Shown: positions 3,192-64,000 of the stretch, one piece after another
Layout of the letters: every line of letters starts with the position of its first letter
How positions within the stretch are numbered: position 1 is the stretch's first letter
Virus record (IMG/VR): IMGVR_UViG_3300031999_000006
Location: 32,622 to 96,621 of that record
DNA: 64,000 nucleotides
Source of the DNA: a virus
Taxonomy: Duplodnaviria > Caudoviricetes
Direction: 5' to 3' (one strand)
The notes under the pieces: generated by a model
Databases searched by the model: none
Told to the model about the DNA's origin: nothing
The model's input: only the letters and a program-made list of their open reading frames with translations
Position numbers and translations under genes: made by a program

Positions 3192-3466
3192 GGTTTCACT
3201 CCACACTTACGTAGTGCCTTTTTCAATGGTGTTCCAAATAGATCGAAGTGGGGTTGGTAATGCTTATGGTGCAACCACTCAGTTTTCAGACCGAGTTCCC
3301 GCATCACCTGACCCAACTGAGTCAACGAAAGTCCACCAATCATCAAGTGCATCGTTTCTTTGCCTTTGTATTGCACCACATTAGGATAGACAGCAATGTT
3401 TCCCATTCGTACCCAGGCTCGTGCCTCTCGGTACTTACCAAAGGGAAAGAATCGCCATTCCATCAT
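3188..3466 (-). CDS. DUF4031-like small protein
   Basis: HLMIG...LGLKTEWLH...PHFDL pattern. Confidence 0.5.
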   Translation of the reverse strand: MMEWRFFPFGKYREARAWVRMGNIAVYPNVVQYKGKETMHLMIGGLSLTQLGQVMRELGLKTEWLHHKHYQPHFDLFGTPLKKALRKCGVKP

Positions 3467-52944: not shown

Positions 52945-53421
52945 TCAGACTCCCTTCGCAAGCGCAAACGATTCGGCGAAGAACTCCTCAACGTTCTTCT
53001 CACTATACTTCGTGGGGAAGGAAACCAACCCCTTCTTGGCCTGATCAAAAAGTTCCTCAACGTCCTTACGTTCACTCTGCGTCAACCGAAGGAACCAAAC
53101 TGCATGACCAATCTCATGAAGGATGTTATACTCGGTCACCACCACACCAGGAGTTGCACGAAGGAGGATCCGACCACCATCACTCTCACACATCCCCAAA
53201 GCACTCTTCGGCCGATATCCGGAGAGTTCAGTTGCCCACTCATCTTCTGAAGTAATGATCCGAATTTCCCAGATGCACCGCCGATCCCACCCACTCAATT
53301 TATTGATACTTTGCCGGATGGTTTGTTCCGAAACTGAATCGGCTCCAATGATCAAAGGATGCTTTGCAAATCCAAAAAGGAAAAGGCTTAGGCTCAGGAC
53401 CTGAAGGATTTCTTTTACCAT
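52945..53421 (-). CDS. Zinc metallopeptidase, lethal-factor/PPEP-like zincin with N-terminal signal-like segment
   Basis: ILHEIGHAV...YSEKNVEEFFAESFA; hydrophobic N-terminus VLSLSLFLFGFA. Confidence 0.7.
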   Translation of the reverse strand: MVKEILQVLSLSLFLFGFAKHPLIIGADSVSEQTIRQSINKLSGWDRRCIWEIRIITSEDEWATELSGYRPKSALGMCESDGGRILLRATPGVVVTEYNILHEIGHAVWFLRLTQSERKDVEELFDQAKKGLVSFPTKYSEKNVEEFFAESFALAKGV

Positions 53422-53452
53422 CTTTGCCTTTCTCATTTTCATCCTCACTATT

Positions 53453-53481
53453 ATTATATATGATGGTTTTCTAAGTGTCAA
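53453..53481 (-). promoter_or_regulatory. Early sigma70 promoter
   Basis: TTGACA-cttagaaaaccatcata(17)-TATAAT. Confidence 0.85.
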
Positions 53482-54452: not shown

Positions 54453-55703
54453 TTAGTCCCTCAAGTCCCAATACCAGTTTGTCGCAATTTGAAGATCGTC
54501 GAAATCAAGGTTAATACGAGCCGCCGTGCCCGTGGTATTACAATAAAAGGATACCTGAGTCCACAACTCACTCATGGTTCGACATGCCTTTGGAGCACCC
54601 ATCTGAACTCCATCAATGAAAACGAGTGCGTAGGGATTGGCCGCTCCTCCGACAATGAACAAGTCAACTTCGTACCACTGATTATTGTTTATGGGATTCA
54701 CTAACGAGATGATAGCCGTCCCAGTCCAAAAGGCCAAACTACCACCACTCACACTATTAAAATAAACCTGAGCGCAATCGGCATTGGATAATGTCCCAAT
54801 CTGAAATCCCTTTGTTCCCACCGTTTTATCTGACGTTCTCATTTTACAGTGGAAACGAGTCCCAAACGCGAGGCCCCAGGGCCATGCCGCACCAGTCAAT
54901 ATCCAACACCGTGAAGTCCCCTCTGTAACTGTATCACCATCGAGCTGTCCCATCTTATCCGCACCAGCATTAACGACAACCTTCGCCGTGGTATCCCCAA
55001 TTAAACTAGCATCCCATGCCGCAAAGTTAGTATAGGAACCTTGTCCAAGAATATTGGCAGTATTAAGCCCGTCGAATAGCTCACTAATAAGAGTACGCAT
55101 TCCTGGTTTAAGCCAGGTCCCAGCCCCACTCAAGAAGCTCTCGGTATCTCCGTCTCGCTTCGGAGCAAGGCCATGGAGTGTCGGCGAAACATCAAGGTCT
55201 GTGTTATCGTCCGGAGCGGCTAAATCGTCCAGCTTGATCGCATCAGCACCCCCACCACTTTCGTGTTGTGCCTTATGTAACGCGTCGGCAAACGCTGAGG
55301 CATGCTCTCCATCAACCTTGTCTGAATCACCTACCTGAGAGATAATGTCTCCACCGCCATGCTGATGGGAGACAGGAGCAAAGTCAGCAGCATGGTCTCC
55401 ATCGACCGTATCAGCATCCCCCGCCTCAGTGGCATAGTCAGACGCATCCACCACACCATCGTCGTTGGTATCGTAGATGGCCTTCATCATGTCGCCTGCA
55501 CCAGCGGCGGCAAACTCAAGACCATCTACAGTCGCCTTTACCACAACAACCTTTCCACCTTCCCCAACATAACTATTTGGAACATCCGTCAGGTCAGTAA
55601 AGGCAGATGCGCCACCCCCTATTGCCTTTATTCTTTTTAGATAGTTCTGTAGAATGCGATCAAGCTCCGCCTCAGTAATGAACCGCTCTCTGCTTCCAGG
55701 CAT
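54453..55703 (-). CDS. Tail fibre/receptor-binding protein
   Basis: FTDLTDVPNSY, GDMMKAIYDTNDDGVVD, repeated D(T/K)VDGxHA, FLSGAGTW fibre motifs; beta-rich lectin-like C-terminus. Confidence 0.7.
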   Translation of the reverse strand: MPGSRERFITEAELDRILQNYLKRIKAIGGGASAFTDLTDVPNSYVGEGGKVVVVKATVDGLEFAAAGAGDMMKAIYDTNDDGVVDASDYATEAGDADTVDGDHAADFAPVSHQHGGGDIISQVGDSDKVDGEHASAFADALHKAQHESGGGADAIKLDDLAAPDDNTDLDVSPTLHGLAPKRDGDTESFLSGAGTWLKPGMRTLISELFDGLNTANILGQGSYTNFAAWDASLIGDTTAKVVVNAGADKMGQLDGDTVTEGTSRCWILTGAAWPWGLAFGTRFHCKMRTSDKTVGTKGFQIGTLSNADCAQVYFNSVSGGSLAFWTGTAIISLVNPINNNQWYEVDLFIVGGAANPYALVFIDGVQMGAPKACRTMSELWTQVSFYCNTTGTAARINLDFDDLQIATNWYWDLRD

Positions 55704-55705
55704 TG

Positions 55706-57046
55706 TTATCTCTCGCTAGGTTGATCTTCACACGTACCAGGTTTCTTATATTTCTTTCCCCAAAGTTCACCTGTACGAGCAAGTGTGACCAAGGATATCT
55801 CCGCCCACATTCTCTGAAACTTACAATGGTTGGTGAGAATCATCTTACGATCACCCGTGCACTGAAAGTTCATCGCATTACATCCACCCCGACAACGCCA
55901 ACGAGCAACACAATCGTCACACTTGAACCCCGAGGTGGGATCAGGATACATATACTCTCTCTTGAGATCCTGAACCTCAGCCAGTTTATGCTCATCAAAC
56001 CCTTTCCAAATATCACCTATCGCCAGTGATGGATCCGAGAACGAGGCGTATCGTTGGCAGGCAAACAACTTCCCTTCGGAATCAACGCCTACCACTCCTC
56101 GTGCAATTCCGCAAACGTGGCCGGTTTGTTCTTGGGCTCCGAGGAATCCAAGTCCATCCTCAATAAACTTCATCCAGATAGGCAGACCCGCCCGCCTTCG
56201 TTCTACATAAATCTCGGCAAGATTCTCATACATTAACCGGGCCTCTTGAAGGCTCTCATCTGTCCAATCCGCCTCGTAAGCCACCTCAGTAGCCACAATA
56301 TACAACCCCTTGCTATGAAACCAGCGAAGGTCAGCCAACCAGTCTGCTACCGTATCAGGGGTAATGGTCGGACGTATTTCCGGAGTTGGATAATACTCCA
56401 GGATCAAATCCAACGGAATAAGATGATGGGAGTTTCCCCCACCAACTGTCTTCCTATGATGATCATGAGTCTCGGGACGACCATCAATACTGAAGAGAGG
56501 AACCATCTCCCACTTCTTCATGAACTCCAAACGCTCCCGATTGAGAAGGGTTGCGTTGGTGGTCATGCCCCAACGAACTTTCCGTCCATACAACTTATTG
56601 TAATAGTCAGAGAACTCCTCTACAAATTGAGTGAGACTGTCCCACTCAACCGTTGGCTCTCCTCCGAAGAATTGAATACTGATGTCATGAGCGCCCAACC
56701 GTTTGTCTTCCTCCTCGGTGAGAAAGACTTTCAGCCGATCAAGCATTTCCTTAGTTGCGGAGATCGGTTTCTTCGTTGCGTAACAATAGGTACAACGAAG
56801 GTTACATTCGTTCGTTAGAAAAACGAAATAGTTTGCTTCGTTCTGCCCACTAGTACCTTTGTCTTTTTGATCAGCATAGCACTTTTGGCAGTGGTAACAA
56901 TCGGCACAGTCAATGGAATCATCCTTCACGAACCACTCCTCAGGAATCTTCCCATCGGCTTGAGCCTGAAGAAACATTTCTGCGTTCACATGTTTTGCTA
57001 CCCCTTTCTCGCAATGGTAACAGTTAAGACATGCTTTATCATTCAT
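55706..57046 (-). CDS. Radical SAM/SPASM maturase with Cys-rich N-terminal extension
   Basis: CNLRCTYC, FFGGEP, TTNATLL, SIDG; SPASM CGIARG..VDSEGKLFAC...CDDC..RWRCRGGC...HC. Confidence 0.92.
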   Translation of the reverse strand: MNDKACLNCYHCEKGVAKHVNAEMFLQAQADGKIPEEWFVKDDSIDCADCYHCQKCYADQKDKGTSGQNEANYFVFLTNECNLRCTYCYATKKPISATKEMLDRLKVFLTEEEDKRLGAHDISIQFFGGEPTVEWDSLTQFVEEFSDYYNKLYGRKVRWGMTTNATLLNRERLEFMKKWEMVPLFSIDGRPETHDHHRKTVGGGNSHHLIPLDLILEYYPTPEIRPTITPDTVADWLADLRWFHSKGLYIVATEVAYEADWTDESLQEARLMYENLAEIYVERRRAGLPIWMKFIEDGLGFLGAQEQTGHVCGIARGVVGVDSEGKLFACQRYASFSDPSLAIGDIWKGFDEHKLAEVQDLKREYMYPDPTSGFKCDDCVARWRCRGGCNAMNFQCTGDRKMILTNHCKFQRMWAEISLVTLARTGELWGKKYKKPGTCEDQPSER

Positions 57047-57055
57047 AGTTTACTC

Positions 57056-57379
57056 CTATTGGTGCGTAACACATAACTGACAATTATTACAAATCTGACA
57101 AGTGGGACACTCCCCTGAATAACACGCCGACTGGCATGTATTACAAATCTGACACGTCGAACACTGAGCCGTATAACAACTTTGACACGAATCGCATAAC
57201 TGACAAGTGGGACACTGCCCTGTATAGCAGGCGGCTTGACAGGTATTACAAAGTTCACAAGTACCACACTGTCCTGTATAGCAGGCGGCTTGACATGCCA
57301 CACAAACCTGACAACTTCCGCATACGGCGGCAAAACATGCCTGACAGGCATCACAACTCTGACATGTTGGGCAAGCCAT
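57056..57379 (-). CDS. Cys-rich repeat peptide (107 aa, 30 Cys), candidate radical SAM substrate
   Basis: Six 17-18-aa units CxxC(Q/E)xCxxCQx(x)CxxxQ/E/V; GGAGGA SD; ATG overlaps the upstream stop (TAATG). Confidence 0.85.
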   Translation of the reverse strand: MACPTCQSCDACQACFAAVCGSCQVCVACQAACYTGQCGTCELCNTCQAACYTGQCPTCQLCDSCQSCYTAQCSTCQICNTCQSACYSGECPTCQICNNCQLCVTHQ

Positions 57380-59949
57380 TATGGTAAAATTCCTCCGTAG
57401 CATTTTTGACAGCTATCACATTTTTGACAGCTATCACAATGCATACAAGTAGTACACTCACCAGTGACACACTGTTGACAAGTTACACAAATTCCACACT
57501 GACCACCTTGACAAGCATCACATGACTGACATGTGTTACAAATCTGACAAGTGGTACATTGTCCCGAGACACACGCCTGGCAGTAATAGCAGGTTTGACA
57601 AGTCGCACATTGACCAGAGACACAAAGTTGGCAGGCATAACAACTTGTACAAGCACCAGACTGCACCGTATTACAAACTTGGCAGTGATAACACACCTCA
57701 CAAAACCCACCGCCCGACGATTGTAAATCTTCCCAAGCAATGACTCCAACCTTTCCTGACTGCATGGACTTTTTAAGGTCTAGCAATCTGTACGGTTCGG
57801 AAGCCAGAACGGAGTAAACTGTCCCATCGGAAAGCAATCGTGTCTTTGTGATGATCACCTTACTCCCGGGGAAAGAAGAAAACATTTTAGAGGGAAGTAT
57901 ACCAGTAACCTTTTTCAAAGGATCTTGTAAAACGCCGACGTAATAAGCCCCCAACTCCTCGGCATCGGCCTGCAATCGAAGTGAGGTGGTTAAGGGAAGT
58001 GTTAGCTCGTTTCCATGCTTCCACTCAGTCTTTGCCGAAACAATCTCAACACTAGAGTAATGATTCTCACTAGGTAGAAGACCATAATTAATCTGGATTG
58101 TTTTGTAGACACCTTCAGTATCAAACTCCAAACCAAAGTCCTCAATCTCCTCATCAACAACTACTGGAGTATTACTATCCGTTCCTTCATAATATCGAAA
58201 CGCGCCTAGTTGCCCGTTAAGTAAAGGGGACAAGTGGAAGAGGGCGGACACCTGAAGAGTACGAACGCTCTCTAGTGCGGGGGATGACGTACTTAGATAA
58301 AGATGATGCTTTTGTGAACGTCCGGATTGTAGATCAAGAAAGGACTTTAACTCAATGTAACTGAACTCAACTCCAGCATAGGTGGTCAAGAGATCGAATA
58401 AGATATCGGCAACGTTCTCGGAGTAGGCGCCATCAAGTATTCCGCACTTCCGGCCCTTAACATGGGCCACAACAAAGGCCTGACCAGGGTCGGCCACGAG
58501 AGAGAACTCACCATTGGCAAGGTCAACTGAGTAGTCAGCCGGGGTGGCCAGTAGTTGACCATTCTTCCAAACATTCACGATCGCCTCAAGTTCGTGGCAG
58601 GCCAACTTGAATGTGTAGGGATCTTTCCCACCGACTATTCCAGAGGAGGCATTAATACAAGTGGCAACCACTTCCTCAAACTCACCATAGATAATCGGTA
58701 TAGGAGTACCTTCAGCACCATCCTCAAGTTCGGAATAGTTATCTACCTCATAGGTTGTTAGAGGAACGTTCTTATATGTGAACGCCTTATGGTCAATTAC
58801 GTCAACTGAAACTATAAGATCACTAGCCTTTGGATATCTAGCCAAACCATGGAAGACATCTTCATATTGATCATAAGTGAAGTCCTTGGCACCGAATCGT
58901 ATTACCACATCCTTTAGATTCCAATAATACTTCTGCACCTGCTCATACCACCAACCATCGTTCAAGAATTGAAGTGAACCAAACTCCATCGTCATCGCGC
59001 TCTCGTGAAAGGGAGAAACCGACTGGTGAAGTTCAGGCATTCCTGCGGTAGTGATATAAGGAAGATAAGGATTCTGTTCCCGTTCAATGATCAAGCTTGC
59101 CTTGTCGAAGTAACAGGATGCTGAAGCAGACGAGTCACTCTTAAAGGTTATAATGTAATCTATGTACGAGGCATTGGCAACAAAGGTCAAAGTGTGGGTG
59201 GTCCACTCTGTCTGGTTACTGAGTGCAATCTGATCTGGTGAAGCACCCCAAGATCCATCACTGGCCAAGTAGACATTATCTGCTGAATCTTTGATCTCAA
59301 TAGCTGAAGTTGCCGAACCGGTATGCTTGTATCGAACGATCACCTTACAAGTTGCATCAGGAACCAATCGGATATGTTGGTGTACTGAGGCCTCATTGTT
59401 CCCAGCATCAATGTCCAACCGAACGCAAAAAGCACCATCGTCAGCCTCAGTCTGCTCCCGATTGACAGTAGAGGTACCAGCTTCACCTTTCGTCCAGTTC
59501 ACTGGTGTAGTCGCGTCACTCCAACGCTCATAGCTACCATCAATCAGCGCGGAACCTATTCTGGGAAGGACGATTAAAGCATCACCATACTGAGTGTTGG
59601 CGAAGTATCTCCAGAAGTAGGCCAAGACAACATAGTCATATAATGGAGGTGCTGTCTGGGTTCCAGGATCATCAGTATCAGTCGTATGCAGATAAAGTTT
59701 TTGGTTAGCCAAGTCATAATAAAAATACTCGGCGTTGTCGTCTGCCTCCTGAAGGGAGTAGGCTTCGGTATACTCAACTCCGTCTTGGGTTACTCGAGAG
59801 ACCACACCGTCTGTATATGAAGACCACCAAAGATTTGTATAGACACCATCCTGCTCCCAAGCCAAGGACTCAACTTCGTGACACGGTTCGATCTCAGCGA
59901 GAAAGACCTTCCACGAATCAGTCTTGGCAATCAATTGCTGGAAGTTCAC
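57379..59949 (-). CDS. Tail tip/hub-like protein with carbohydrate-binding-like insert and C-terminal 30-Cys repeat
   Basis: Follows TMP and the distal-tail-like gene; GTPIPIIYG motif; insert beginning LIDGSYERW; last 107 aa are CxxC repeats. Confidence 0.75.
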   Translation of the reverse strand: MNFQQLIAKTDSWKVFLAEIEPCHEVESLAWEQDGVYTNLWWSSYTDGVVSRVTQDGVEYTEAYSLQEADDNAEYFYYDLANQKLYLHTTDTDDPGTQTAPPLYDYVVLAYFWRYFANTQYGDALIVLPRIGSALIDGSYERWSDATTPVNWTKGEAGTSTVNREQTEADDGAFCVRLDIDAGNNEASVHQHIRLVPDATCKVIVRYKHTGSATSAIEIKDSADNVYLASDGSWGASPDQIALSNQTEWTTHTLTFVANASYIDYIITFKSDSSASASCYFDKASLIIEREQNPYLPYITTAGMPELHQSVSPFHESAMTMEFGSLQFLNDGWWYEQVQKYYWNLKDVVIRFGAKDFTYDQYEDVFHGLARYPKASDLIVSVDVIDHKAFTYKNVPLTTYEVDNYSELEDGAEGTPIPIIYGEFEEVVATCINASSGIVGGKDPYTFKLACHELEAIVNVWKNGQLLATPADYSVDLANGEFSLVADPGQAFVVAHVKGRKCGILDGAYSENVADILFDLLTTYAGVEFSYIELKSFLDLQSGRSQKHHLYLSTSSPALESVRTLQVSALFHLSPLLNGQLGAFRYYEGTDSNTPVVVDEEIEDFGLEFDTEGVYKTIQINYGLLPSENHYSSVEIVSAKTEWKHGNELTLPLTTSLRLQADAEELGAYYVGVLQDPLKKVTGILPSKMFSSFPGSKVIITKTRLLSDGTVYSVLASEPYRLLDLKKSMQSGKVGVIAWEDLQSSGGGFCEVCYHCQVCNTVQSGACTSCYACQLCVSGQCATCQTCYYCQACVSGQCTTCQICNTCQSCDACQGGQCGICVTCQQCVTGECTTCMHCDSCQKCDSCQKCYGGILP

Positions 59950-60713
59950 TATCTTAACTCCTCAATGGAACACACCGCATTGAAGTATGCCTCTCCGAAG
60001 ACATGATCAATCGTAGGTTTGGATGAAAACCGGACATACCAGGTCGTGGTGGAAGGGAGATCCCGGTCTCTGGTGAAAAAGAATTCTCGTCCGATACCAC
60101 GATCTAGAAACATCGCATCAAAGTTATCAGCATCAACAGCGGGTAGATTTTCAAACTTCATATCCATAGTGCGGTAGCGAGTTTTCTGATTAGTAACAAT
60201 CTGCCCACCAGAAGAAAACATCACATCTGACGGATCCTCGGTCGACTTTTTATAATCAATGGACATATTGATTGACGGACTGAGGTAGGGACCAAGGAAG
60301 ATCCGTCCGATCTCCAGATAAGCCGCCACCGGTGCAGTGTCAACAATCAATACTCGCCAGTATTGATAGGGAGTTTGAGGTGCCAACCAAAAGTAGGCCA
60401 TGAGTTCCGCAACTGGTACCTCAACATCAATGTACAAATTCCCGAAAGCAGGATCATCATCGGCTTGAATACTAACCACCGCCGAAGGTGAGAAATTATG
60501 CTTTTTTATAGCGAAGGCTTGTATCGCTGGAGGAGAGGCACCAAAGTCGGCTACAATGGACTCCGTCAATGTCCCGGTATTGTTGATGCTTCGCCAGGTT
60601 CTTGTATGCCACCGGTGCTGGGTATTGATCGCTGGGAAGAGGGGGTTCTCCGTACTAGGAGTCAGCGTGGCGAGATCCCACTTGTTACTATACATAAATG
60701 TGCAGTTGGTCAT
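59949..60713 (-). CDS. Distal/minor tail protein
   Basis: Directly after TMP; YQYWRVLI...YLEIGRIFLG. Confidence 0.65.
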   Translation of the reverse strand: MTNCTFMYSNKWDLATLTPSTENPLFPAINTQHRWHTRTWRSINNTGTLTESIVADFGASPPAIQAFAIKKHNFSPSAVVSIQADDDPAFGNLYIDVEVPVAELMAYFWLAPQTPYQYWRVLIVDTAPVAAYLEIGRIFLGPYLSPSINMSIDYKKSTEDPSDVMFSSGGQIVTNQKTRYRTMDMKFENLPAVDADNFDAMFLDRGIGREFFFTRDRDLPSTTTWYVRFSSKPTIDHVFGEAYFNAVCSIEELR

Positions 60714-63700
60714 TATCCTCTCCCTCTAACCGCCCGAGGCCGTACCAAGATTCGTTCATCAGCACTGGCCTTTTGAACCCACTCAATCACTAACGACTGA
60801 AGATGCTTGAAAGGAATGATCACCGGTTCAAAGGTCACATTCTTTTCAATCACGGTAACTTGGGATCCATCACTCTCTACCTTGCCCGGTCTTCCGATCC
60901 TCACCGCCTCGGTCACTCCAGGTTCAACATAGAATGTTCTTGGTCCTGTTACCGTACCTTCAAACCCATGCTGGGCTCTTGTGGTCTGCCGCCCTCCCGC
61001 CTCTTGACTATCTCGCGTCTCTTCACCAATTTTTATGAGGCGGTCAGCACGACCAATAAGATCACTAAACCCTTCCGCAAGTATCGTATTAATATCCTTG
61101 CCTCTCTCTTTCCAAGTACCGGCCAACTTTGCTTGGGCAATCAGCATCTCCGTACCAGCATCAAGTTTTAGTCCATATTGTTCAGCATAATAGGCCAGAT
61201 CAGATAAGGTCGGAGAGACCATCGCCATCGCTTGTTTAGGATCAAGTCCGGCCGAGATCAGTTTATCATAATATCCAGTAGCCTGTGTAGAAAGATCCGC
61301 CAGTGATTCGGCAGTTAGGAAGCCGGTATCACCAAGTGCCTTAAGTAGTTGTCTTGTTCCTTCAAGACCCTCAAACAATCCCTCGTTCGCTTTTTGTATA
61401 TCAACCAATTTGAAAAGATCCTCAATCGCGGCTCCACCAGTGAGACCCAACTCCGTGTACTTGTCACGAAGGGCAACAAGGGAGTCCCCCATCAGAGCAA
61501 AGGTTTCAGACATACTTTTGCCTTGCTGAATAAACGAACTGAACATCGCCACAGTCAGGCGACCAACTCTCTCCAACTCTGGAGCAAGTCCAGAAGCCAG
61601 AGAAGTTTTCAGATCGTCATACTTTTTGCGCAACTCCTCCAACTGGGCCTTTTTCTGGAGGTACTCACGCTGGGCGGCCCGCTCAGAGATCTTAGACATG
61701 GACAACTTATCAACTTCTTCGCCCAAAGTCTTTATCTCATCACGATAGGTGATCAACTGCTTATAACCTGAACCGCCGACCGACTCAACCATAGACTTCA
61801 AGCCGCCCGCACCTTTCTCAAGGGCTCCAAAGACATAGTCATCCACTTCAGCAATACTTACTCCGATCTTCCTGAGATACTGCATGAAAGAGACCAATGC
61901 CTTAGATCCCTCCTTATCGAACTTTTGTGCCCAGGTGATCAAGGCGTTGAAAGCTGAACCTATTGCATCCATCCCCTTCTGTACATCAACTGTTCCGCTT
62001 GCCATATCCCGAAGTGCCTGAGTCATCTTCGTAACATAACCCTGAAGGTTCTTCATTGAGATTCCGGCGTCGTTCATCACATCAGTCAATGTCATGATCG
62101 TAGCGGTTTGTTTGTTATACTGCTTGGTTAGATCAATAATCTTTTTCGCTGTGGCCTCAGTAATGTCTCCCAAACTCTTATACGACTTGGTCACGGAGTC
62201 AACTTGCTTCTTCAGTTCCTCGGCGGCCTTTTGTTCGGCAGTTTTCTTTTTCTTGAACAACCCACCAAAGAGTCCACCAACAAGCGATCCGATCACATTA
62301 CCAACACCAGGGAGGATGGAACCGAGAGCACCACCTAACGCGGCTCCGATGCCTCCGTAAGTATTCGCTCCACCTCCACCAATCAATCCACCCAAGGCGG
62401 CGCCCAACGCACCGGCCAGTTCACCACTCAATTCCTTAAAGGCTTTCTTCAAATTCTTGAAGTCCATCTTTCCTTTACCACCCATCTCATTAAACTGTCT
62501 GGTCAAACTGGAAGCTATCTGTCCGGCAACAGAGGCGGCCGCTGTCACTAGTGGTTTCAACTTTTCGCCAGCAGTGTCACCAAAGACCTGCAAGGCAGTG
62601 CCTAAAGCTGAGAAACCTTTGATCATATCACTACTCATTCCCTTTGCGGCTTCTGCGGCCTTGTCAATGATCTTCTGATACTCCTTAGGAACCGTCAAAC
62701 CCAACTGATGATAAAGATCGGCGATCATGGTCACCGCCGTAACTTCATCCTGGTGAGTGATGTCGGCAGTTGCCTTTAGTGAACGATAGGCTTCCTCAAC
62801 TTCAACGAGTTTGTATTTATACTGAGTTGCCCTTTGTATTCCAAGTAGAGCGGCCTTCTCGTCCATAAATCCTGAAAAGTATCGAGGAGGAGGAGTGGGA
62901 TACTGAACCGCAGGACCCATCATCTGTTCCTCAGTCATAAGTCCTGGGGCCTCAAGATTCCATTTCTTTGGCGAAGGAAGCGGAGTTTCGGCCACCTTGG
63001 TCATATTGTTTAGCGTGGCAGTAAGAGTAGGATCTAATTTCTTCAACGCCTCATTGATCGCATCAATTCCTGCTTGATAGTTTGCCCAAGTGATGTTGCC
63101 GGCTTCCATTTCCTTTTTCAGATCCCAGAAGTCCTTTGTAATCTTGATGACTTCGACGGAGACTTCCGTCTTGGTCAGTATGCCGAGATTCAGGAGAGCT
63201 TGACTATTCTTTCCTAATACAGCGCCCAGTTCCCTTAGTTCTTTCTTCATACGATCGTAGTCAATCTTGGTCATCTGGTCGCCGAAGTCCGCAAGACCCT
63301 GCTTTAGTGTGTCATAACGATCCTGAACTTCTGTCTTCAGAGTGTAACCATAACCCTTCAGCATCTCACGCAAACCAGCTAGGCGATTGGTTTCGGCTTC
63401 TGCCGCAGTTGCCGCCGCCTGGGAAGACTCACTTAAGGCCTTCTTCTCTTCCACCTTTGCCTTGATCAATTTCTCAGTCCCGTTGTTAACTGCCTCTAGT
63501 GCCGCACTATATGAACCGTACTTGATCTTTAGTTGAATAGCACTCTCACCAGTATCCCGGAGTGCGGCTTTTAGATCAGTCATGGCTTTTAGTTGCTTCG
63601 TATTCTCGGCTCCGGCTCCCCAGTCACCGATCTCGAGAATCTTTTTCTTCAGACCGGTCACATCACTAAGCCATTCACCAATCTTCCAACCTGCGGCGAA

Positions 63701-64000
63701 GGCGGCTAACGCGGCGACTGCTGTGCCCAAGGCGGCAGTGATGCCACTCATCGCTCCGGCAAGGCGGGGCATGGTAGTGAGTCCAGTTTCTATCCCGGCC
63801 ATCAATAGTCTTCCGAAAGAGACCGCCTTGGAGGCAACAGTAAAGGCCAACCAGACCTTAAACAACAGAACCAACTCATCCTTGAACTTGACTATGAACT
63901 TGATCGCATCACCAATTGCCTTACCGATGCTAAGTCCAGTGGTAATTACACTCTGAGTCAATGCGTCAATTCGCTTCTTCATCTCCTCAGCAGACCCAGC
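60713..64000 (-). CDS. Tape measure protein (5' end outside the window)
   Basis: >1090 aa Ala/Gly/Lys-rich helical protein with GAALGG..G stretches; frame is open to base 64000. Confidence 0.85.
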   Translation of the reverse strand, partial: AGSAEEMKKRIDALTQSVITTGLSIGKAIGDAIKFIVKFKDELVLLFKVWLAFTVASKAVSFGRLLMAGIETGLTTMPRLAGAMSGITAALGTAVAALAAFAAGWKIGEWLSDVTGLKKKILEIGDWGAGAENTKQLKAMTDLKAALRDTGESAIQLKIKYGSYSAALEAVNNGTEKLIKAKVEEKKALSESSQAAATAAEAETNRLAGLREMLKGYGYTLKTEVQDRYDTLKQGLADFGDQMTKIDYDRMKKELRELGAVLGKNSQALLNLGILTKTEVSVEVIKITKDFWDLKKEMEAGNITWANYQAGIDAINEALKKLDPTLTATLNNMTKVAETPLPSPKKWNLEAPGLMTEEQMMGPAVQYPTPPPRYFSGFMDEKAALLGIQRATQYKYKLVEVEEAYRSLKATADITHQDEVTAVTMIADLYHQLGLTVPKEYQKIIDKAAEAAKGMSSDMIKGFSALGTALQVFGDTAGEKLKPLVTAAASVAGQIASSLTRQFNEMGGKGKMDFKNLKKAFKELSGELAGALGAALGGLIGGGGANTYGGIGAALGGALGSILPGVGNVIGSLVGGLFGGLFKKKKTAEQKAAEELKKQVDSVTKSYKSLGDITEATAKKIIDLTKQYNKQTATIMTLTDVMNDAGISMKNLQGYVTKMTQALRDMASGTVDVQKGMDAIGSAFNALITWAQKFDKEGSKALVSFMQYLRKIGVSIAEVDDYVFGALEKGAGGLKSMVESVGGSGYKQLITYRDEIKTLGEEVDKLSMSKISERAAQREYLQKKAQLEELRKKYDDLKTSLASGLAPELERVGRLTVAMFSSFIQQGKSMSETFALMGDSLVALRDKYTELGLTGGAAIEDLFKLVDIQKANEGLFEGLEGTRQLLKALGDTGFLTAESLADLSTQATGYYDKLISAGLDPKQAMAMVSPTLSDLAYYAEQYGLKLDAGTEMLIAQAKLAGTWKERGKDINTILAEGFSDLIGRADRLIKIGEETRDSQEAGGRQTTRAQHGFEGTVTGPRTFYVEPGVTEAVRIGRPGKVESDGSQVTVIEKNVTFEPVIIPFKHLQSLVIEWVQKASADERILVRPRAVRGRG

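What the first reader, a model, noticed from the sequence alone, without database searches (positions are those of the whole stretch)
57379..57702. Substrate-like Cys array fused to the C-terminus of a structural tail protein
Seen: after a SSGGGF linker the 856-aa tail protein switches to blocks of 4, 4, 5, 6, 4 and 7 Cys (CxxCxxC...) separated by SGA/SGQ/GGQ/TGE turns. The first ~750 aa have ordinary Cys content. Inference: the folded tail protein could serve as the 'leader' or scaffold, and the array would sit at the distal, host-facing tip. An alternative is a multi-metal (Zn or Fe-S) rod, since CxxCxxC is a cluster-binding spacing.
Basis: partly seen in the sequence, partly recalled or inferred. 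Interest (0 to 1): 0.75.

Follow-up and report, generated by a model that had tools for sequence, protein, structure and literature searches.

The report
Radical-SAM-linked cysteine array on phage tail tip
An uncultured phage ends its tail-tip hub protein in a 107-residue run of evenly spaced cysteines that always travels with a separate look-alike peptide of the same length and a radical SAM cross-linking enzyme, so the phage probably staples the tip of its own tail chemically, which no experiment has yet tested.

Summary
Residues 750-856 of the 856-aa ORF hold 30 Cys in 107 aa, against 7 in the first 749. 24 of 29 Cys spacings are 3, in blocks of 4,4,5,6,4,7.

The carrier protein follows the tape-measure and distal-tail genes. 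Its model matches siphophage tail-tip hub proteins (T5, lambda, T1).

In all 14 distinct Cys-type loci with downstream DNA, the array is followed by a leaderless free Cys peptide and then a PapB/CteB-like radical SAM/SPASM enzyme. Fused array and free peptide match in length over 96-296 aa (r=0.99, median difference 4 aa). The enzyme's N-terminus carries the same Cys modules.

Distant hub homologues carry His-x-Asp/Asn arrays at the same position. In 15 of 15 loci these are followed by a different, cyclophane-synthase/anSME-like radical SAM enzyme.

Between near-identical phages the array is 82% identical and the body 99%.

Best reading: an enzyme-cross-linked, hypervariable tail-tip rod that pairs with the free peptide. 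A purely metal-binding rod is not excluded.

Nothing is shown biochemically. Seven literature searches found no description. This scan has noted similar phage radical SAM/array systems on other DNA.

The parts
60713..63982 (-). Tape measure protein (1089 aa)
   Evidence: phrog_167 'tail length tape measure protein', E 5e-11. Pfam TMP_3, E 2.9e-5, below its cut-off.
59949..60713 (-). 254-aa protein in the distal-tail (Dit) slot
   Evidence: phrog_8610 (unknown function), E 2.9e-21. Placement between the tape measure and the hub is read from gene order. The Dit role is inferred from position only.
57379..59949 (-). P0001, 856-aa baseplate hub / tail-tip protein (Tal, gpJ/pb3-like), with a CBM-like insertion and the C-terminal Cys array
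   Evidence: AF2 model: mean pLDDT 80.6, pTM 0.79. Foldseek against PDB: T5 tail tip 7zqp_b, E 1.2e-16, TM 0.41/0.48; also DT57C, lambda, T1, GTA, JBD30 and Chi tail tips. phrog_8917, E 5e-16.
59041..59526 (-). Carbohydrate-binding-module-like insertion (about residues 142-303)
   Evidence: NF048003 'phage head spike fiber domain', E 8.5e-6, below cut-off. Foldseek CBM16/CBM4 hits with TMt 0.66-0.81. PF02018 is recorded for two homologues.
57382..57702 (-). The Cys array: residues 750-856, 30 Cys, six blocks. The hexad is C-[Q/E]-x-C-[D/N/Y/V..]-x.
   Evidence: AF2 pLDDT is 26-37 here, so no confident fold.
57056..57379 (-). Free, leaderless Cys peptide: 107 aa, 30 Cys, six 17-18-residue units of 5 Cys. 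Its ATG overlaps the hub's stop codon (TAATG).
   Evidence: The start M-[A/S/G]-C is conserved in 9 homologues. It is 51% identical to the fused array.
55706..57046 (-). P0003, radical SAM/SPASM enzyme (446 aa), PapB/CteB-like
   Evidence: Pfam Radical_SAM, E 1.5e-10. NCBIfam PapB, 193 bits, E 6.8e-57 (cut-off 340), then the SCIFF, nif11 and QhpD maturases. PDB CteB 5wgg, E 2.4e-25. AF2 pLDDT 83.1; Foldseek CteB 5why_B, E 1.4e-21, TMq 0.67. C81-x3-C85-x2-C88 and seven SPASM Cys are invariant in 21 sequences.
56846..57046 (-). N-terminal about 67 residues of the enzyme. Two CxxCxxC modules (C6/9/12 and C47/50/53/56) flank one helix, in the place where an RRE would sit.
   Evidence: CteB aligns only from residue 75. 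pLDDT is 31-70.
54453..55703 (-). P0004, 416-aa fibre-like protein immediately after the enzyme
   Evidence: phrog_11660 'tail protein', E 1.8e-6, and phrog_18179 'virion structural protein', E 6.6e-6; both match the N-terminal residues 25-79 only.

Best explanation
P0001 is the trimeric baseplate hub (tail-tip) protein of a siphovirus-like phage. Its last 107 residues are a repeat array of hexads, C-[Q/E]-x-C-[D/N/Y/V]-x, in six blocks, and they extend from the hub as the distal tip.

This array is modified after translation by the radical SAM/SPASM enzyme encoded two genes downstream. A separately translated, leaderless peptive of the same length and Cys count is modified with it. The most likely chemistry is the formation of many thioether (ranthionine-type) links from Cys sulfur to side-chain carbons, for which the conserved Q/E(/M) positions are the best acceptor candidates.

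The enzyme has no leader-binding RRE. It probably docks through its own N-terminal copies of the Cys module.

The fused array and the free peptide pair side by side along their whole length, giving a covalently stapled rod. The non-Cys surface of the fused array is exchanged rapidly between related phages, as expected of a host-contacting part.

Shown: the anatomy, the fold class of the hub and of the enzyme, strict co-occurrence, the length match, and the hypervariability. Inferred: that the enzyme acts on the array, the kind of bond, the pairing, the trimeric tip location, and the function.
For: 1. Co-occurrence.
- Starting from the hub protein, 10 of 10 Cys-type loci with downstream DNA have hub-array, then free Cys peptide, then P0003-like enzyme: the window, L001-L005 and L019-L022. 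The enzyme is cut by the contig end in L002 and L022.
- A more distant hub, L036, has the same order.
- Starting from the enzyme, 6 of 6 new loci have tape measure, a protein of about 375 aa, hub with array, free peptide and enzyme: L040, L041, L043-L046.
- This makes 14 distinct loci.
- One hub homologue without an array, L031, has no radical SAM hit.

2. Length match across the 14 loci.
- The Cys-to-Cys span of the fused array against that of the free peptide gives r=0.986, with a median difference of 4 aa over a range of 96-296 aa.
- Block number is equal in 9 of 14 loci and within one in 12 of 14.
- Shuffling the partners reaches the observed median in 14 of 100,000 trials.
- The window itself has 101/101 aa, 30/30 Cys and 6/6 blocks. 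Yet the two sequences are only 51% identical and share no DNA word longer than 19 nt. Selection, not recent copying, therefore keeps them equal.

3. The enzyme.
- Its top five NCBIfam hits are the PapB, SCIFF, nif11, QhpD and ScfB-related maturases.
- Its nearest solved structure is CteB, by sequence and by fold.
- CxxCxxC modules precede the catalytic core in 70 of 75 clusters of its subfamily, against 1 of 44 of the next-nearest PapB-like relatives.
- The number of N-terminal Cys rises with array size (rho 0.74, n=12).

4. Sister clade.
- Hub homologues at 27-36% identity carry His arrays at the same position. Every His sits in H-x-[D/N] in 10 of the 13 loci counted, for example 57 of 57, 30 of 30 and 22 of 22. 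L009 has 14 of 17. In L007 and L030 my script took nearly the whole protein as the array, so their counts of 22 of 40 and 21 of 37 are not of the array alone.
- 15 of 15 are followed at once by a different radical SAM/SPASM enzyme, whose best hits are anSME, DynA and the cyclophane synthases YhhB and AmcB.
- Array chemistry and enzyme family therefore switch together.

5. Acceptor-like conservation.
- Alternate x1 columns are almost purely Q/E: 135 of 142 residues in arrays and 106 of 108 in peptides, with M as the commonest exception.
- Two consecutive Q/E occur in only 9 of 433 and 11 of 403 cases.
- What is conserved is the side-chain skeleton, not the charge.

6. Precedents.
- CrpC installs ranthionine links in CrpA, a protein with a 17-residue Cys motif repeated 10 times, including a Met-containing motif (PMC13692751, sections 8, 12 and 14).
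- PapB links Cys to Asp/Glu in Cys-X3-Asp/Glu motifs and tolerates n=0-6 (PMC9413430, abstract).

7. Tip location and host contact.
- Gene order and fold place the protein at the tail tip.
- P0001 against P0005: body 694/699 identical, array 88/107.
- L001 against L019: body 740/743, array 97/108, free peptide 113/115, enzyme 445/445.
Against: - No experiment exists. There is no mass, metal or structural datum.
- P0003 scores below the PapB family cut-off (193 against 340 bits), so its chemistry is not assigned by the curated model. anSME, a different chemistry, is the second structural neighbour.
- The array gives no confident fold (pLDDT 26-37).
- Every Cys has another Cys at -3 and +3. Dense overlapping Cys-X3-acceptor rings may be sterically impossible, so only some Cys may be used.
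- About a third of x1 positions are not D/E/N/Q.
- Block patterns differ between the fused array (4,4,5,6,4,7) and the free peptide (5x6), which does not fit simple in-register pairing.
- The length match rests on few independent expansions. Within the long class alone r=0.67, p=0.10, n=7. L036 departs from it (296 against 252 aa) and shows a 74-nt identical stretch, so gene conversion contributes there.
- CxxC-rich sequences bind Zn or Fe-S readily. From memory, siphophage tail tips are known to hold an Fe-S cluster (lambda gpL).
- Co-occurrence was tested only on loci from two collections. 47 of the 58 loci from the enzyme-first scan were not examined; these have at most 30% identity and no match to the N-terminus.
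Confidence: 0.55

Rival explanations
1. The array is a metal-thiolate or Fe-S rod. It binds Zn, Fe or Fe-S clusters, possibly together with the free peptide, without covalent change. The radical SAM enzyme acts only on the free peptide or on another target.
For: - CxxC/CxxCxxC spacing is typical of metal sites, and 30+30 Cys could give about 15 tetrathiolate sites.
- The free peptide has CxxCxxCxxxC stretches: 3 in the window, and 40 spacings of 4 over ten loci counted (two of them near-identical).
- Sister proteins carry His/Asp arrays, residues that also bind metals.
- From memory: lambda gpL holds a [4Fe-4S] cluster, and T4 and P2 fibre or spike tips hold Fe on HxH motifs.
Against: - A metal rod does not need a dedicated radical SAM/SPASM enzyme. 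One is present in 14 of 14 Cys-type and 15 of 15 His-type loci, and its family switches with the array chemistry.
- Q/E and D/N interchange freely, which is odd for metal ligands, because amides are poor ones.
- Pfam finds no Fer4 or other metal-domain match in P0001 or P0002.
- The fused array of the window has no spacing of 4 and no Cys-Pro ferredoxin signature.
Confidence: 0.2
2. The enzyme does modify the arrays, but with chemistry other than thioether formation. Candidates are Cys to formylglycine (as anSME does), sactionine (S-C-alpha) links, epimerisation, or C-C links.
For: anSME is the second-best structural neighbour (4k37_A, E 1.2e-18, TMt 0.78). P0003 is below every curated family cut-off, so its subfamily could have its own reaction.
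Against: The strongest sequence and fold matches are PapB and CteB, both thioether formers. The substrate's dominant feature is Cys beside conserved Q/E(/M) positions, which fits donor-acceptor pairs.
Confidence: 0.13
3. The array is a disulfide-rich rod that oxidises after lysis. The array and the free peptide zip together through Cys-Cys bonds, and the enzyme is accessory or unrelated.
For: Cys totals of the fused array and the free peptide are nearly equal: 30/30, 44/42, 83/81, 63/62, 64/66 and 68/69. This is what one-to-one Cys pairing would need.
Against: It does not explain the obligatory enzyme, the enzyme's own Cys modules, the conserved Q/E columns or the His-type sister system.
Confidence: 0.08
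4. The array is a non-functional, low-complexity tail or an annotation artefact.
For: AF2 gives no confident structure.
Against: The frame runs on from an 856-aa conserved protein. The Cys columns are invariant or nearly so (at least 11 of 13) in 13 homologues, and the array is present in 15 of 18 relatives. Synonymous TGT/TGC changes occur at conserved Cys between L001 and L019.
Confidence: 0.01

Closest known systems
CrpA/CrpB/CrpC of Methanococcus voltae (PMC13692751, 2026): a SPASM radical SAM enzyme that installs ranthionine links in a Cys-rich protein
   Same: The substrate is a protein, not a short peptide. It has a C-terminal Cys repeat array of about 17-residue units, and a second related protein is encoded beside it. 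The enzyme is CteB/PapB-like with three clusters. AlphaFold gives low confidence for the array.
   Different: CrpC has an RRE, and CrpA and CrpB share a leader-like N-terminus; here there is no RRE and no leader. The host is an archaeon and the suggested function is metal-related, whereas here the carrier is a virion tail-tip hub. The Cys density (every third residue) and the hexad differ. Membership of CrpC's family (TIGR04463) was not seen among the 25 families shown of 66.
Ranthipeptide systems: PapB/freyrasin and CteB/SCIFF
   Same: They are the best sequence and fold relatives of P0003. They have several Cys donor-acceptor motifs per substrate, and the Cys-X3-Asp/Glu spacing (PMC9413430, abstract) fits C(i) to x1(i+4) in the hexad.
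   Different: P0003 is below the family cut-offs (193 against 340, 125 against 425). The substrates here are 100-300-residue arrays, leaderless or fused to an 750-aa folded protein. The acceptor candidates are mostly Gln/Glu/Asn/Asp in overlapping register. The enzyme's N-terminus is a Cys-module domain, not an RRE.
Siphophage baseplate hub / central fibre proteins (T5 pb3, lambda gpJ, T1). The chain names are from memory; the entries are.
   Same: Same gene position after the tape measure and the distal tail protein, and the same overall hub fold (E 1e-16 to 1e-10). The C-terminus continues into the tail-tip fibre.
   Different: Known hubs continue into FNIII or beta-helical fibres and a receptor-binding domain. 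None is known, from memory or from the searches, to end in a Cys-triplet array or to have a dedicated radical SAM enzyme.
Three-residue cyclophane ('triceptide') radical SAM systems such as HaaB and HtkB (PMC11499958, abstract). These are relevant to the His-type sister clade.
   Same: His-x-[D/N] triplets resemble the aromatic-X-X3 motif. The sister enzymes hit the cyclophane synthases YhhB, AmcB, XyeB and DynA.
   Different: All scores are far below the family cut-offs. The substrate is the C-terminus of a tail hub. The link is untested. The 'rSAM module' (rSAM + DUF483) noted in the Thermus phages Cumys and phiMa was tentatively tied there to DNA modification (bioRxiv 10.1101/2024.08.14.607894, passage).

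Membership tests
PapB-family radical SAM/SPASM ranthipeptide maturase (NF047865) | Whole-protein score at or above the curated cut-off | tested here: not met
   193.2 bits against a cut-off of 340. It is the best of 66 families.
PapB-family radical SAM/SPASM ranthipeptide maturase (NF047865) | CxxxCxxC radical SAM cluster motif and a seven-Cys SPASM domain | tested here: met
   C81/C85/C88 and C312, G325-x4-C330, C376-x2-C379-x5-C385-x3-C389 and C408 are invariant in 21 sequences. The fold matches CteB.
PapB-family radical SAM/SPASM ranthipeptide maturase (NF047865) | N-terminal RRE (PqqD-like) domain that binds a leader peptide | tested here: not met
   CteB aligns only from residue 75. The AF2 N-terminus has one helix and pLDDT 31-70. 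No Pfam domain lies before residue 76. The substrates start M-A-C and have no leader.
PapB-family radical SAM/SPASM ranthipeptide maturase (NF047865) | Substrate with Cys-X3-Asp/Glu motifs, and a thioether product | tested here: inconclusive
   D/E/N/Q occupies 65-67% of x1 positions, which equals Cys+4. The product is not testable with these tools.
Baseplate hub / tail-associated (Tal, gpJ/pb3-like) protein | Gene directly after the tape measure and the distal tail protein | tested here: met
   The same order is seen in L040-L046.
Baseplate hub / tail-associated (Tal, gpJ/pb3-like) protein | Hub fold shared with solved tail tips | tested here: met
   7zqp_b, E 1.2e-16, TM 0.41/0.48; 8hqz_A; 8xcg_J; 9l9p_S; 6tba_8A. 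The model has pLDDT 80.6.
Baseplate hub / tail-associated (Tal, gpJ/pb3-like) protein | Trimer present in the virion | not testable with these tools
   No virion or proteome data. The phage is uncultured: there is no match in 50,697 phage records.
Ferredoxin-type Fe-S array (CxxCxxCxxxCP) | Fer4-type motif or domain | tested here: not met
   No Pfam or NCBIfam hit for P0002 or for the array. The fused array has no spacing of 4. The free peptide has CxxCxxCxxxC followed by Tyr, not Pro.
CrpC-type orphan radical SAM family (TIGR04463, named in PMC13692751) | Match to the family model | tested here: inconclusive
   It is not among the 25 families shown of the 66 that matched. The remaining 41 were not displayed.
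Diversity-generating retroelement target | A near-identical template repeat and a reverse transcriptase | tested here: not met
   The array and the free-peptide gene share no DNA word longer than 19 nt in the window. The differences between L001 and L019 include many synonymous and multi-base codon changes, so they are recombination tracts, not adenine mutagenesis. A reverse transcriptase was not searched for.

The most novel reading that the evidence does not exclude
Phages build the very tip of their tail from a two-chain rod, the hub's C-terminal array plus a free peptide of matched length. A phage-encoded radical SAM enzyme staples this rod covalently with dozens of RiPP-type cross-links. 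The same hub scaffold has swapped the whole chemistry at least once, between a Cys/thioether kit and a His-x-Asp/cyclophane kit. The hypervariable, enzyme-hardened array is the host-contacting determinant. This would be a new class of post-translationally cross-linked virion structure, and a new way for an enzyme to recognise its substrate, by co-folding with its own copies of the repeat.
Probability: 0.35. Interest if true: 0.9.

Novelty: new variant of a known kind. Interest (0 to 1): 0.8.

Why it matters
Radical SAM cross-linking is known from small peptide antibiotics and, since 2026, from one archaeal Cys-rich protein. If this reading is right, the same chemistry is a standard building step of a virus particle, at the part that meets the host.

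It would also explain the purpose of the 'orphan' radical SAM genes in phage tail modules. One preprint took such a module for a DNA-modification system.

It gives a leaderless, RRE-free mode of substrate recognition.

It offers a natural, length-tunable, hypervariable and covalently hardened scaffold. The enzyme subfamily has at least 75 sequence clusters in metagenomes.

The hypothesis can be tested directly with three genes in E. coli.

Tried and rejected
- Complex prediction, array (residues 735-856, alignment A3) with the free peptide (A2): the verdict was 'no answer', score 0.00. It counts neither for nor against binding.
- AF2 gave no usable fold for the array or for the enzyme's N-terminus.
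- The protein-atlas search with the free peptide gave no usable hit.
- tblastn of P0001 and of a His-type hub against 50,697 phage records found no match. P0003 found only relatives at 23-28% identity.
- The search for related loci in genome contigs found no relative. A single-protein query in viral contigs found none; the alignment query then worked.
- A programmed frameshift that fuses the free peptide to the hub was rejected. The peptide's frame is open for only 0-8 codons upstream in homologues, and in L036 and L040 there is an intergenic gap.
- A DGR was rejected.
- Slippage-generated low complexity was rejected.
- Literature: seven searches found no paper that links a radical SAM enzyme to a phage tail protein array. 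The library lacks most subscription journals.
- Rows dropped:
  - L006, L012, L023 and L034: the hub is cut before or at the array.
  - L013-L018: these match the CBM domain only.
  - L019, L041 and L046: near-duplicates of L001, L040 and L044 in the pair table.
  - L037-L039 and L042: the same contigs as L005, L003, L004 and L036.
  - L047-L093: at most 30% identity to P0003; not examined.
- The ORF lists for the His-type loci used a 90-aa minimum, so a short free His peptide could have been missed.


Full report
OBSERVATION

The minus-strand ORF 57379..59949 encodes an 856-aa protein, P0001. After SSGGGF (residues 744-749) come 107 residues with 30 Cys, coded by 57382-57702. The first 749 residues hold 7 Cys. 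Of the 29 Cys-to-Cys spacings, 24 are exactly 3, in blocks of 4, 4, 5, 6, 4 and 7. No shuffle out of 100,000 comes near this; the maximum was 14.

Tandem Repeats Finder sees only one 18-nt duplication, so the period is kept at the protein level. In the 96,621-bp genome, a single contig in which the window spans 32622-96621, only this ORF and the next one are this Cys-dense.

THE CARRIER PROTEIN

Upstream lie a tape measure protein (phrog_167, E 5e-11) and a 254-aa protein in the distal-tail slot. An AlphaFold2 model of P0001 built on 18 homologues is confident for residues 12-744 (mean pLDDT 80.6, pTM 0.79) but not for the array (pLDDT 26-37).

Foldseek against the PDB returns tail-tip chains of T5 (7zqp_b, E 1.2e-16), DT57C, lambda, T1, the Rhodobacter gene transfer agent, JBD30 and Chi. 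It returns CBM16/CBM4 modules for an inserted domain at about residues 142-303. From memory, these chains are the baseplate hub proteins pb3 and gpJ and their kin, which are trimers that close the tail tip and continue into the central fibre. P0001 is therefore the hub, and its C-terminal array should project from the tip. The location is inferred from homology and has not been seen directly.

THE NEIGHBOURS

The hub's TAA stop overlaps the ATG of a 107-aa ORF (TAATG). This ORF is nothing but six 17-18-residue units of five Cys, 30 Cys in all, and it has no leader. Nine bases further on starts P0003, a 446-aa radical SAM/SPASM enzyme.
- Its best NCBIfam matches are PapB (193 bits, E 6.8e-57, cut-off 340), the SCIFF maturase, the nif11 maturase and QhpD.
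- Its best solved relative is CteB, by sequence (E 2.4e-25) and by fold (E 1.4e-21, TMq 0.67; anSME comes next).
- The CxxxCxxC motif and seven SPASM Cys are invariant in 21 subfamily members.
- CteB aligns only from residue 75. The first 67 residues hold two CxxCxxC modules around one helix and give no RRE-like fold.

A fibre-like protein follows.

COMPARATIVE TEST, HUB FIRST

All 10 Cys-type loci with downstream DNA show hub-array, free Cys peptide and P0003-like enzyme in that order. So does a much more distant hub, L036. The one array-less homologue with context, L031, has no radical SAM gene.

COMPARATIVE TEST, ENZYME FIRST

P0003 has a sharply bounded subfamily of 75 clusters (at least 34% identity over the full length). 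After that the scores fall to PapB-like proteins at about 30% identity that lack the N-terminus. CxxCxxC modules precede the catalytic core in 70 of the 75 clusters, but in only 1 of the next 44.

Six new viral loci found with the enzyme alignment (L040, L041, L043-L046) all read tape measure, a protein of about 375 aa, hub with Cys array, free Cys peptide, enzyme. A further 47 loci with at most 30% identity were not examined.

A profile-free scan of 1.84 billion representative proteins with the free peptide gave 14 hits. Ten are hub proteins with arrays. One is a 237-aa protein with another N-terminal domain. Three are of doubtful relation. The motif is therefore essentially confined to this setting.

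LENGTH MATCH

Across the 14 distinct loci, the span of the fused array and that of the free peptide agree closely: r=0.986, and the median difference is 4 aa over 96-296 aa. Examples are 101/101, 147/143, 288/285, 233/230, 240/239 and 242/246.
- Block counts are equal in 9 of 14 loci and within one in 12 of 14.
- Shuffled partners match as well in only 14 of 100,000 trials.
- The enzyme's N-terminal Cys count also rises with array size (rho 0.74, n=12).

In the window the two arrays are only 51% identical and share no DNA word longer than 19 nt. Free peptides are 57-70% identical to each other across phages. They are old paralogues held to the same length, which argues for side-by-side pairing.

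Caveats:
- The expansions are few and related. Within the long class alone r=0.67 (p=0.10, n=7).
- L036 departs from the match (296 against 252 aa) and has a 74-nt identical stretch that points to gene conversion.
- The block patterns of the two chains differ.

SISTER CLADE

Fifteen loci encode hub homologues (27-36% identical) whose C-terminus is a His array. In 10 of the 13 loci counted, every His sits in an H-x-[D/N] triplet, for example 57 of 57, 30 of 30 and 22 of 22. L009 has 14 of 17. In L007 and L030 my script took nearly the whole protein as the array, so their counts of 22 of 40 and 21 of 37 are not of the array alone.

All 15 are followed at once by a different radical SAM/SPASM enzyme. 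Its best hits are anSME, DynA and the cyclophane synthases YhhB, AmcB and XyeB. Next comes a weakly DUF483-like protein.

This is the 'rSAM module' that a preprint on Thermus phages noted and tentatively tied to DNA modification. Array chemistry and enzyme family thus switch together on one scaffold. That is hard to explain unless the array is the enzyme's substrate.

WHAT THE ARRAY LOOKS LIKE AS A SUBSTRATE

The real unit is a hexad, C-[Q/E]-x-C-[D/N/Y/V/S/T]-x. Two consecutive Q/E positions occur in only 9 of 433 cases in fused arrays and 11 of 403 in free peptides. The Q/E columns are almost pure: 135 of 142 residues in arrays and 106 of 108 in peptides, with Met as the commonest exception. 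What is conserved is therefore an unbranched side chain with a gamma-methylene, not a charge.

Each Cys has such a position at +1 and at +4. The +4 position is the Cys-X3-Asp/Glu spacing of PapB (abstract). CrpC, which modifies a Cys-repeat protein, uses motifs ending in Asp, Met or aliphatic residues (sections 8, 12 and 14).

I therefore favour many thioether links. Which Cys are used, and whether the links run within a chain or between chains, is open.

HYPERVARIABILITY

Between two near-identical phages the hub body is 694/699 identical and the array 88/107. In a second pair the figures are body 740/743, array 97/108, free peptide 113/115 and enzyme 445/445. At the DNA level the array differences include many synonymous and multi-base codon changes. 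The array is therefore swapped by recombination, as host-range modules are.

RIVALS

A metal or Fe-S rod remains possible, and could coexist with cross-links. It does not explain the obligatory enzyme, the matched switch of enzyme family, or the free interchange of acids and amides. Other radical SAM chemistries, and a rod held by disulfides only, rank lower.

KNOWN AND NEW

The closest described system is CrpA/CrpC. The enzyme is closest to PapB and CteB but fails their cut-offs and lacks an RRE. The carrier is a member of the hub fold class.

Seven literature searches found no account of a phage tail protein that carries such an array with its own maturase. Supplements were closed. Earlier notes of this scan describe similar phage radical SAM/array systems on other DNA. 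They agree with this report but are not independent evidence.

I file the finding as a new variant of a known kind, RiPP-like protein cross-linking. The bolder reading, a stapled two-chain tail tip, stands at about 35%.

VERDICT

Interest is 0.8.

Noticed in passing
L007-L011, L024-L030, L032, L033, L035 (e.g. L008:7983-11988, L024:1948-6721): Hub homologues end in His-x-Asp/Asn arrays of up to 57 triplets. Each is followed at once by a distinct radical SAM/SPASM enzyme and a weakly DUF483-like protein. No free His peptide was seen among ORFs of 90 aa or more.
   Followed up: partly
L004:11155-13479: The radical SAM gene of this relative is interrupted inside its CxxxCxxC cluster motif by an insertion of about 330 aa. 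The insertion has a Hint start and a LAGLIDADG domain (PF14528, E 3.3e-16), so it is an intein in the catalytic motif.
   Followed up: partly
L001:2988-7238 vs L019:881-5131: There are 75 differences in 4251 nt, and 38 of them fall in the roughly 270 nt of the array. Smaller clusters lie at 143-173, 1986-2036 and 3230-3281, which indicates mosaic recombination tracts.
   Followed up: partly
L036:5293-9081: The fused array and the free-peptide gene share a 74-nt identical stretch, which suggests recent gene conversion between the two paralogues. This is also the locus with the worst length match (296 against 252 aa).
   Followed up: partly
P0031 (237 aa) and P0029 (403 aa): P0031 carries the same Cys array behind a different, Ig-like-looking N-terminal domain. 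P0029 has 18-residue units of five Cys at spacing 3 behind a lipoprotein-like N-terminus. These may be other carriers of the motif.
   Followed up: no
L004:5568-10679: The hub protein of this relative is 1704 aa. It has an extra N-terminal part of about 800 aa with weak right-handed beta-helix matches (PF13229, E 9e-4).
   Followed up: no
window 57377-57381: The hub's stop codon and the free peptide's start codon overlap as TAATG, with GGAGGA 12 nt upstream inside the hub's last codons. This suggests translational coupling of the two array genes.
   Followed up: partly
window 52945-53481 (minus strand): A 178-aa ORF downstream of the fibre gene has a sub-threshold Pfam match to the ATLF family (E 5e-5, 23.5 bits against a cut-off of 27.4). 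It may be a small metallopeptidase-like domain.
   Followed up: no
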